Source of the DNA: Ostrea edulis
Lineage: Eukaryota
NCBI RefSeq assembly: GCF_947568905.1
Contig: NC_079169.1
Coordinates: 66,712,001-66,776,000 of the forward strand
Length of the DNA: 64,000 nucleotides
Reading direction: 5' to 3'
Positions within the stretch are counted from its first letter, which is position 1. Each line of letters opens with the position of its first letter. The notes beneath the pieces are model-generated. The model did not search any database, was not told where the DNA came from, and saw only the letters and a program-made list of their open reading frames with translations. Positions 13,444 to 13,722 of the stretch are shown piece by piece. The translations under genes were made by a program, and so were the position numbers.

Positions 13444-13722
13444 ATGCAGTATCTTATCCCTGTTTGTCTGTTGGTGTTGCTGGCTAGCTGTGAGGCTGGC
13501 GTTGTCAAATGTAGAGCCCAGTGTGGGAATCAATTTGGGGACTGTTGTTCATCTGTGTGCAACGGTAATGTTCAACATCTTGGGGTTTTCAATGTCGCGC
13601 TGCATTGCCATTACAACCGATCTGTGGCCTCACATATTCACTGTGGGACAGAGTGCCATGAAAAGTTCCTAAACTGTACCATGGAGTGTGGAAGCATTGA
13701 TCCTACTTTGCTTGGAAAATAA
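13444..13722 (+). CDS. Small secreted cysteine-rich protein, 92 aa (signal peptide plus 10-Cys mature domain)
   Basis: Acceptor GATTTTCAG directly before the ATG. Hydrophobic leader MQYLIPVCLLVLLASCEA. Mature GVVKCRAQCGNQFGDCCSSVC...CHYNRSVASHIHCGTECHEKFLNCTMECGSIDPTLLGK with an even, regularly spaced Cys set. GC content elevated relative to flanks. Confidence 0.8.
   Translation: MQYLIPVCLLVLLASCEAGVVKCRAQCGNQFGDCCSSVCNGNVQHLGVFNVALHCHYNRSVASHIHCGTECHEKFLNCTMECGSIDPTLLGK

What the first reader, a model, noticed from the sequence alone, without database searches (positions are those of the whole stretch)
13444..13722. Orphan secreted 10-Cys peptide with a helical-hairpin toxin-like cysteine ladder
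Seen: an 18-aa signal-like leader, then C-x3-C-x6-CC-x3-C-x15-C-x11-C-x3-C-x6-C-x3-C. Known: nemertean neurotoxin B-IV has C-x3-C-x6-C-x2-C...C-x3-C-x6-C-x3-C forming a disulfide-laddered alpha-helical hairpin, and alpha-hairpinins use CX3C pairs. Inference: a similar hairpin with a longer, His-rich loop and one extra disulfide. It could be an antimicrobial, toxin-like or signalling peptide. It does not match bivalve defensin, big defensin, mytilin or macin frameworks that I recall. It sits tail-to-tail with TTC21B.
Basis: partly seen in the sequence, partly recalled or inferred. Interest (0 to 1): 0.72.

Follow-up and report, generated by a model that had tools for sequence, protein, structure and literature searches.

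The report
Orphan oyster disulfide-stapled helical peptide
An oyster-like bivalve makes a messenger RNA for a small, likely secreted peptide with ten cysteines and no detectable relatives, which is predicted to fold into a disulfide-stapled helix pair like some marine toxins but lacks their active residues and more likely serves in defence against microbes.

Summary
The ORF (13444-13722, +, 92 aa) and its cysteine spacing are as described, and the gene is transcribed. Contigs of 4 of 4 RNA-labelled runs end in a non-genomic poly(A) tail about 15 nt after an AATAAA that overlaps the stop codon. It is single-copy. It has no credible homologue in Pfam, the PDB or 1.84 billion representatives, while the neighbouring SPMIP11 exon finds 48 relatives. 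Seven cysteines are in register with neurotoxin B-IV. One of two single-sequence AlphaFold2 runs (trimmed core, pLDDT 80) gives two long helices with a short His-bearing helix between them; the other run (pLDDT 65) differs. It is not a B-IV family member: the fourth cysteine, the loop length and the residues needed for toxicity do not match, and its net charge is about zero. Best reading: a lineage-restricted secreted helical-hairpin peptide, probably an acid- or metal-dependent defence effector. That function is inferred, not tested. Splicing, disulfide pairing and tissue are unknown. The scan had not noted this sequence on other DNA (24).

The parts
13444..13722 (+). Complete coding sequence, 92 aa, in one exon
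   Evidence: RNA contigs cover 13447/13451/13459/13462 to the poly(A) site
13444..13497 (+). Predicted signal peptide, 18 aa
   Evidence: Hydropathy and -3/-1 rule by eye; inferred, no SignalP run
13504..13560 (+). Predicted helix 1 (mature 3-21), Cys 5, 9, 16, 17, 21
   Evidence: AlphaFold2 model of mature 1-67, block pLDDT 86-87; Cys 5, 9, 16 and Phe13 on one face
13561..13623 (+). Insert between the two long helices: loop plus predicted short helix (mature 30-40) with Cys37 and His27, His36, His38
   Evidence: Helix 30-40/41 in both models; 5 of 6 His lie in mature 22-48, p = 0.036
13624..13692 (+). Predicted helix 3 (mature 43-65), Cys 49, 53, 60, 64
   Evidence: the four Cys and Phe57 lie within 240-320 degrees of the wheel
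13714..13719 (+). C-terminal Gly-Lys before the stop, a possible amidation signal
   Evidence: Sequence; the processing rule is recalled and was not tested
13718..13723 (+). AATAAA polyadenylation signal overlapping the stop codon
13723..13738 (+). 16-nt 3' UTR ending at the poly(A) site 13738
   Evidence: Non-genomic A tails of 17-21 nt in X1, X2, X4, and a tail at the same place in X3
13430..13443 (+). Predicted 3' splice site (pyrimidine tract and CAG) directly before the ATG
   Evidence: Sequence; no RNA contig crosses it, so splicing is not shown
13231..13238 (+). Candidate TATA box, 206 nt before the ATG
   Evidence: Motif scan; 1 of 4 TATA-like matches in 9701-13440, untested

Best explanation
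This single-copy bivalve gene is transcribed and polyadenylated, and it encodes a likely secreted 74-residue peptide that is predicted to fold as two antiparallel helices stapled by disulfides, with a short histidine-bearing helix between them, and that most likely acts as a non-lytic host-defence peptide. SHOWN: ORF, cysteine spacing, poly(A) transcript, single copy, no detectable homologue. PREDICTED: signal cleavage after residue 18; helices at 3-21, 30-40 and 43-65. INFERRED: disulfides C5-C64, C9-C60 and C16-C53 form the ladder; C17, C21, C37 and C49 close its top and tie on the extra helix (pairing undetermined). The rigid stalk would survive proteases in mucus or haemolymph. The His-rich head would be the working end: the peptide is neutral at pH 7, about +3 at pH 6 and +6 at pH 5, so it would engage microbial surfaces in acidic sites and/or hold Zn or Cu, as clavanins and microplusin do. 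Rough odds: real gene 0.97, secreted 0.9, hairpin with inserted helix 0.65, defence role 0.35-0.4.
For: Poly(A) transcript in 4 of 4 RNA-labelled runs (one study), partial cover in a fifth run of another study, and no RNA cover in the unique flank 13150-13422 where DNA run X7 continues. The one coding difference seen in 6 laid runs is synonymous in this frame and missense in the overlapping frame. The model of mature 1-67 has pLDDT 80.4 and pTM 0.66 from a single sequence. Its best structural matches are generic antiparallel helix pairs, mostly about 50 of 67 residues aligned over the range 1-67. Seven Cys are in B-IV register: 5.5e-5 of 200,000 residue shuffles, pattern chosen after the fact; two C-x3-C-x6-C units in 0.4%. 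His is 6 of 74 (p 0.01-0.02) and clusters in the insert (p 0.036). Precedents: His-dependent, low-pH or Cu-chelating peptides (PMC5198042, passages); acrorhagin I, a hairpin with four disulfides that resembles B-IV and is listed with zinc and nickel (PMC13608440, passages).
Against: No call tests function. The model of the whole mature chain (1-74) had pLDDT 65.5 with strands at both ends. The trimmed run was chosen after seeing it, and 2 of 5 models in each run scored about 31-36. Three Cys pairs in register arise in 18% of shuffles, so the register alone is weak. Mussel antimicrobial peptides are described as cationic and MgCRP-I as a duplicated, hypervariable family; this peptide is neutral, single-copy and showed no missense variant. 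The His residues are not in an i/i+3 or i/i+4 pair on one helix, so no canonical metal site is visible. Tissue and induction are unknown.
Confidence: 0.35

Rival explanations
1. The same scaffold is a signalling ligand (hormone, neuropeptide or water-borne pheromone) that acts on a receptor of the animal itself, possibly amidated at the C-terminus.
For: Single copy, neutral charge, C-terminal Gly-Lys, no missense variant in 6 runs. Oysters have lineage-restricted Cys-rich secreted regulatory peptides such as CCCGS (PMC8398477, passages).
Against: No dibasic pro-region. It does not match the Cys-rich precursors seen in part 5 of 7 of that paper's supplement. Neuropeptides there are mostly shared across molluscs, whereas this one has no homologue.
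Confidence: 0.22
2. It is an extracellular matrix or carrier component (shell organic matrix, mucus, gamete surface, or Zn/Cu transport) with no defence role.
For: Orphan, neutral, His- and Cys-rich. It lies between a sperm microtubule gene and a cilia transport gene. An orphan, all-helical, five-disulfide secreted protein is known from a snail (CRASP, PMC4596865, passages).
Against: Gene neighbourhood says little about function in animals. No low-complexity or acidic tracts typical of shell proteins (own knowledge). The CRASP cysteine spacing differs.
Confidence: 0.2
3. It works like neurotoxin B-IV or acrorhagin I: an anti-predator or anti-parasite peptide acting on invertebrate nerve membranes.
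Confidence: 0.08
4. The fold is not one hairpin but two modules: an N-terminal knottin-like unit (C-C-CC-C-C, six Cys) and a C-terminal alpha-hairpinin-like unit (four Cys).
Against: The sixth Cys comes after 15 residues, not 3-5. The higher-confidence model has 3-21 and 43-65 as continuous helices. Both halves share C-x3-C-x3-F-x2-C.
Confidence: 0.1
5. The exon is not an independent gene: it is a non-coding transcript or an alternative last exon of SPMIP11, read in the overlapping frame that is open over 13397-13672.
For: The ATG follows a splice acceptor directly and no 5' exon was found. An overlapping frame is open for 91 codons.
Against: A signal-like leader plus 10 Cys is not produced by 60 shuffles. 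The one coding variant is silent only in the peptide frame. Weak RNA contigs in X3 and X4 end at about 11055, just before a separate AATAAA at 11098 that could end SPMIP11. No joint from SPMIP11 was seen.
Confidence: 0.04

Closest known systems
Nemertean neurotoxin B-IV / beta-nemertides (PDB 1VIB; Pfam PF07822 Toxin_13)
   Same: C-x3-C-x6-C at the start and C-x3-C-x6-C-x3-C at the end; B-IV is a helical hairpin (PMC6410017 section 12) and this peptide is predicted to be one
   Different: 10 Cys against 8; CC-x3-C in place of C-x2-C; 27 residues against 10 between the two Cys blocks, with an extra Cys and a predicted third helix; activity residues absent; neutral; no profile match
Acrorhagin I and other disulfide-stabilised helical hairpin peptides (PDB 6UX5; octocoral Esi20/21; conotoxin im23a)
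   Same: Small secreted marine peptides with a predicted or solved disulfide-held helix pair that recurs without sequence similarity (passages); acrorhagin I is listed with zinc and nickel
Microplusin / hebraein (tick) and clavanins (tunicate)
   Same: His-dependent antimicrobial peptides that act at low pH or by Cu chelation (PMC5198042, passages): a functional analogy
   Different: No homology found; metal binding and activity untested here
MgCRP-I of mussels
   Same: Lineage-restricted secreted Cys-rich peptide of a bivalve with unknown role; first five Cys fit its consensus
   Different: No pro-region or dibasic site, last loop too long, four more Cys, single copy; MgCRP-I was not found in oysters

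Membership tests
Neurotoxin B-IV family (Pfam Toxin_13) | Eight Cys spaced 3,6,2,10,3,6,3 | tested here: not met
   Ten Cys spaced 3,6,0,3,15,11,3,6,3; seven in register
Neurotoxin B-IV family (Pfam Toxin_13) | Profile score over the family cut-off | tested here: not met
   No Pfam family at E up to 10 (filters drop weak hits); a genome search with the profile scored 7 candidates and did not report this locus
Neurotoxin B-IV family (Pfam Toxin_13) | Tyr9, Arg17, Arg25, aromatic 30, Arg34 needed for activity | tested here: not met
   0 of 5 kept when mapped by Cys register; no Trp in the peptide
Neurotoxin B-IV family (Pfam Toxin_13) | Paralytic activity on crustaceans | not testable with these tools
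   Needs a bioassay
Disulfide-stabilised helical hairpin fold (B-IV, acrorhagin I) | Cys on one face of each of two helices | tested here: met
   Cys 5, 9, 16 at 200-240 degrees; Cys 49, 53, 60, 64 at 240-300 degrees on their wheels, assuming the helices
Disulfide-stabilised helical hairpin fold (B-IV, acrorhagin I) | Two long antiparallel helices | tested here: inconclusive
Disulfide-stabilised helical hairpin fold (B-IV, acrorhagin I) | Laddered disulfide connectivity | not testable with these tools
   Model coordinates are not returned; pairing is inferred from register only
Disulfide-stabilised helical hairpin fold (B-IV, acrorhagin I) | Structural match to a solved member | tested here: inconclusive
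MgCRP-I / C-C-CC-C-C peptides | C(X3-6)C(X1-7)CC(X3-4)C(X3-5)C | tested here: not met
   Last loop is 15 residues
MgCRP-I / C-C-CC-C-C peptides | About 15-residue pro-region ending in KR or RR | tested here: not met
   First mature Cys is 5 residues after the predicted signal; no dibasic site
Alpha-hairpinins | C-x3-C-xn-C-x3-C folding as its own small hairpin (definition recalled) | tested here: inconclusive
   The C-terminal four Cys fit the pattern with n = 6, but the better model has them on one continuous helix
Known bivalve antimicrobial peptides (defensin, big defensin, myticin, mytimycin, macin, myticusin) | Family Cys framework or Pfam domain | tested here: not met
   No Pfam hit; spacing differs, by eye, from the myticin B and C, mytimycin, mytimacin, big defensin, myticusin-1 and VpBD rows shown; mytilin and defensin rows were not shown
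Known bivalve antimicrobial peptides (defensin, big defensin, myticin, mytimycin, macin, myticusin) | Net positive charge at neutral pH | tested here: not met
   +0.2 at pH 7; myticusin-1 is also listed at charge 0
Con-ikot-ikot / conotoxin framework XXI (10 Cys) | CC-C-C-C-CC-C-C-C | tested here: not met
   Here C-C-CC-C-C-C-C-C-C
Molluscan FYFY precursor (10 Cys) | Long Cys-rich peptide with conserved spacing | tested here: not met
   Alignment in supplement part 5, recognised by its C-terminal peptide, is longer and spaced differently
Microplusin-like Cu-chelating antimicrobial peptides | His-dependent Cu binding and growth inhibition | not testable with these tools
   His enrichment only; no homology

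The most novel reading that the evidence does not exclude
It is the first bivalve example of the B-IV/acrorhagin-type helical-hairpin scaffold, reached independently. It is extended into a five-disulfide, three-helix form whose His-rich head is a pH- and Zn/Cu-gated antimicrobial site: a new family of oyster defence peptides missed by gene annotation.
Probability: 0.2. Interest if true: 0.72.

Novelty: new variant of a known kind. Interest (0 to 1): 0.48.

Why it matters
Few antimicrobial peptide families are known from oysters compared with mussels (own knowledge). A transcribed, unannotated secreted peptide with a new five-disulfide framework is a testable candidate for the missing repertoire. 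If the fold holds, it extends the disulfide-stabilised helical hairpin to a non-venomous filter feeder and offers a stable scaffold with an inserted functional helix. If it is only a matrix or signalling orphan, it is one of many lineage-restricted Cys-rich peptides and of modest interest.

Tried and rejected
Sequence searches with no credible hit: Pfam; PDB sequences, whole and mature; word-index search, near lengths and longer (93, 1 candidate, none at E up to 1); ESM Atlas twice (10, 59; a blank there shows neither absence nor novelty). The HMMER search of 1.84 billion representatives gave 2 hits. Both are repeat proteins whose weak matches add up, a bacterial InlB B-repeat protein and an unnamed repeat ORF, and neither keeps the Cys framework. 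The metagenome scan gave 1 locus of 81 pattern matches, an 8-residue identity in the stretch before the likely start of a bacterial ORF in a sugar-metabolism cluster, taken as chance. Own genome: 2 weak extra matches. L003 has no signal or framework. L004 shares 11 of 26 residues with the insert region but is flanked by stops, and its DNA score (64) is within 200 shuffles (mean 55, max 75). A Cys-codon pattern search was uninformative: 1,854 matches against 2,382 for the control. Fold searches: Foldseek PDB gave nothing at E up to 0.001 for either model, the viral library nothing, and pdb_via had no chains to compare. B-IV (1VIB) is not among the 50 rows shown in either wide search, which does not exclude it. 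No splice joint or 5' exon was found in RNA contigs over 8560-13760. Candidate donors (12140 and nearer, weaker ones) are untested. Depth was not used to rank expression. An insulin-like reading (CC-x3-C) was dropped because the x8 Cys and B-chain order are missing (recalled pattern). No complex prediction was run because no binding is claimed. Nine paper searches turned up no description of this peptide or framework; subscription journals are mostly not covered, and the acrorhagin I structure paper was not held. One search used a guessed species name; no call shows the species.

Full report
Observation. Window 13444-13722 (+) encodes 92 residues. A hydrophobic leader of 18 residues is followed by 74 residues with Cys at 5, 9, 16, 17, 21, 37, 49, 53, 60 and 64. 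The ATG follows a pyrimidine tract and CAG, so it probably opens a coding exon behind a non-coding first exon (inferred). An ATG-ORF of 60-150 aa with ten or more Cys occurs once in the window and in none of 60 shuffled windows.

Setting. The genome has 895 Mb in 52 contigs. The neighbours are a TCP-1 chaperonin exon (minus), SPMIP11/TEX49 (plus, upstream) and TTC21B (minus, downstream), all by Pfam. The closest named relatives of the SPMIP11 exon are from Pinctada (87%) and Saccostrea (85%), so the animal is an oyster-like bivalve; the species is not shown by any search. TTC21B stops at about 14990 and has a minus-strand AATAAA at 14820-14825, about 1.1 kb from the peptide's poly(A) site: tail-to-tail is confirmed.

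It is a real transcript. Eight runs hold the stretch, four on record as RNA. I laid six of the eight (X1-X5, X7). In X1, X2 and X4 one contig runs from 13451, 13462 or 13459 to 13738 and continues with 17-21 A that the genome lacks. In X3 the contig runs from 13447 and ends in the same tail, with two small differences in the 3' UTR. An AATAAA at 13718-13723 overlaps the stop codon, 15 nt before the tail, so the 3' UTR has 16 nt. These four runs are one study. X5, from a second study and only guessed to be RNA, covers 13476-13654 without a tail. The unique flank 13150-13422 has no RNA cover, while run X7, which behaves as genomic DNA, spans 13150-13774 in one contig. The only coding difference listed in the six runs (13620 A to G, X5) is silent in this frame and missense in the overlapping open frame; contigs drop rare variants, so this is a small hint. 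No contig crosses the acceptor, so the splice and the first exon are not shown.

It is an orphan in what could be searched. It is single-copy by protein and DNA search. Nothing credible came from Pfam, PDB sequences, the word-index searches, the ESM Atlas or HMMER on 1.84 billion representatives, whose 2 hits are repeat artefacts. As a control, the neighbouring SPMIP11 exon found 48 relatives among 48 candidates, many of them molluscs. The database therefore holds bivalve proteins, but short ORFs may be uncalled in them, and no other oyster genome could be searched in six frames. Orthologues in oysters remain possible.

Comparison with B-IV. From PMC6410017 (section 12 read in full, Table 4 read) B-IV has Cys at 12, 16, 23, 26, 37, 41, 48 and 52 and needs Tyr9, Arg17, Arg25, Trp30 and Arg34. 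Seven Cys here are in that register, which 5.5e-5 of shuffles reach, with the caveat that the pattern was chosen after the fact. The fourth Cys differs, the gap is 27 residues instead of 10, none of the five residues is kept, and the charge is +0.2 at pH 7. The Toxin_13 profile does not match. It may share the scaffold; it is not a member. Reviews describe this hairpin as recurring in unrelated marine peptides: acrorhagin I, octocoral peptides and conotoxin im23a (passages of PMC13608440, PMC11896702 and PMC4278219). The acrorhagin structure paper itself was not available.

Other families. It fails the MgCRP-I consensus and has no pro-region (PMC4558851, passages). It differs from the mussel and clam peptides printed in PMC5484132 (passages), from framework XXI, from CRASP (PMC4596865, passages) and from the oyster Cys-rich neuropeptide precursors in one of seven parts of the PMC8398477 supplement. 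The other parts, and the pages held as pictures, were not seen and could hold further precursors. PMC12466427 and PMC4986456 (passages) added nothing that matches.

Mechanism. The most likely reading is a secreted, protease-resistant stalk carrying a His-rich head. Six of 74 residues are His (p 0.01-0.02) and five lie in 22-48 (p 0.036). The calculated charge rises to +3 at pH 6 and +6 at pH 5. Clavanins, hebraein and microplusin use His in this way, for low-pH membrane binding or Cu chelation (PMC5198042, passages). This is analogy, and there are points against it: single copy, no missense variant, neutral charge and no canonical His pair. I put the whole statement at 0.35. Signalling ligand (0.22), matrix or carrier protein (0.2), a two-module fold (0.1), B-IV-like toxin (0.08) and non-gene (0.04) are the rivals.

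Verdict. Observation confirmed; interpretation partly supported. It is a real orphan peptide gene and a probable new variant of the disulfide-stabilised helical hairpin, with untested function. Four look-ups in earlier scan notes gave nothing that bears on it. Interest 0.48.

Noticed in passing
window 8144-9718 (+): SPMIP11/TEX49 gene, apparently three coding exons (first exon Pfam PF22593; later exons read by eye), divergent from a TCP-1 chaperonin gene whose exon lies at 4805-5083 (-). Weak RNA contigs at 10886-11055 before AATAAA 11098 may mark its 3' end.
   Followed up: partly
window 13718-13738: The polyadenylation signal overlaps the stop codon, leaving a 16-nt 3' UTR; a very high-copy repeat begins 30 nt after the poly(A) site (13768-13837).
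   Followed up: yes
window 12337-13065: Degenerate 21-bp tandem repeat in both orientations just upstream of the peptide exon; probably a mobile-element remnant.
   Followed up: no
window 11390-11770 and 9310-9540: Short interspersed repeats with tRNA-like stretches, by eye; the first is present as tandem near-copies.
   Followed up: no
L004 (G000:C4:7384948-7385052, -): A 26-codon stretch shares 11 residues with the peptide's insert region without gaps, but is flanked by stops and is not significant at DNA level; it could be chance or a decayed copy.
   Followed up: partly
window 13397-13672 (+): A second frame stays open for 91 codons over the peptide exon; the one coding variant argues against its use.
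   Followed up: partly
window 13370-13443: An upstream ATG in good context opens a 17-codon out-of-frame ORF, and another ATG 18 nt before the start is in frame; both matter only if this stretch is not spliced out (read by eye).
   Followed up: no
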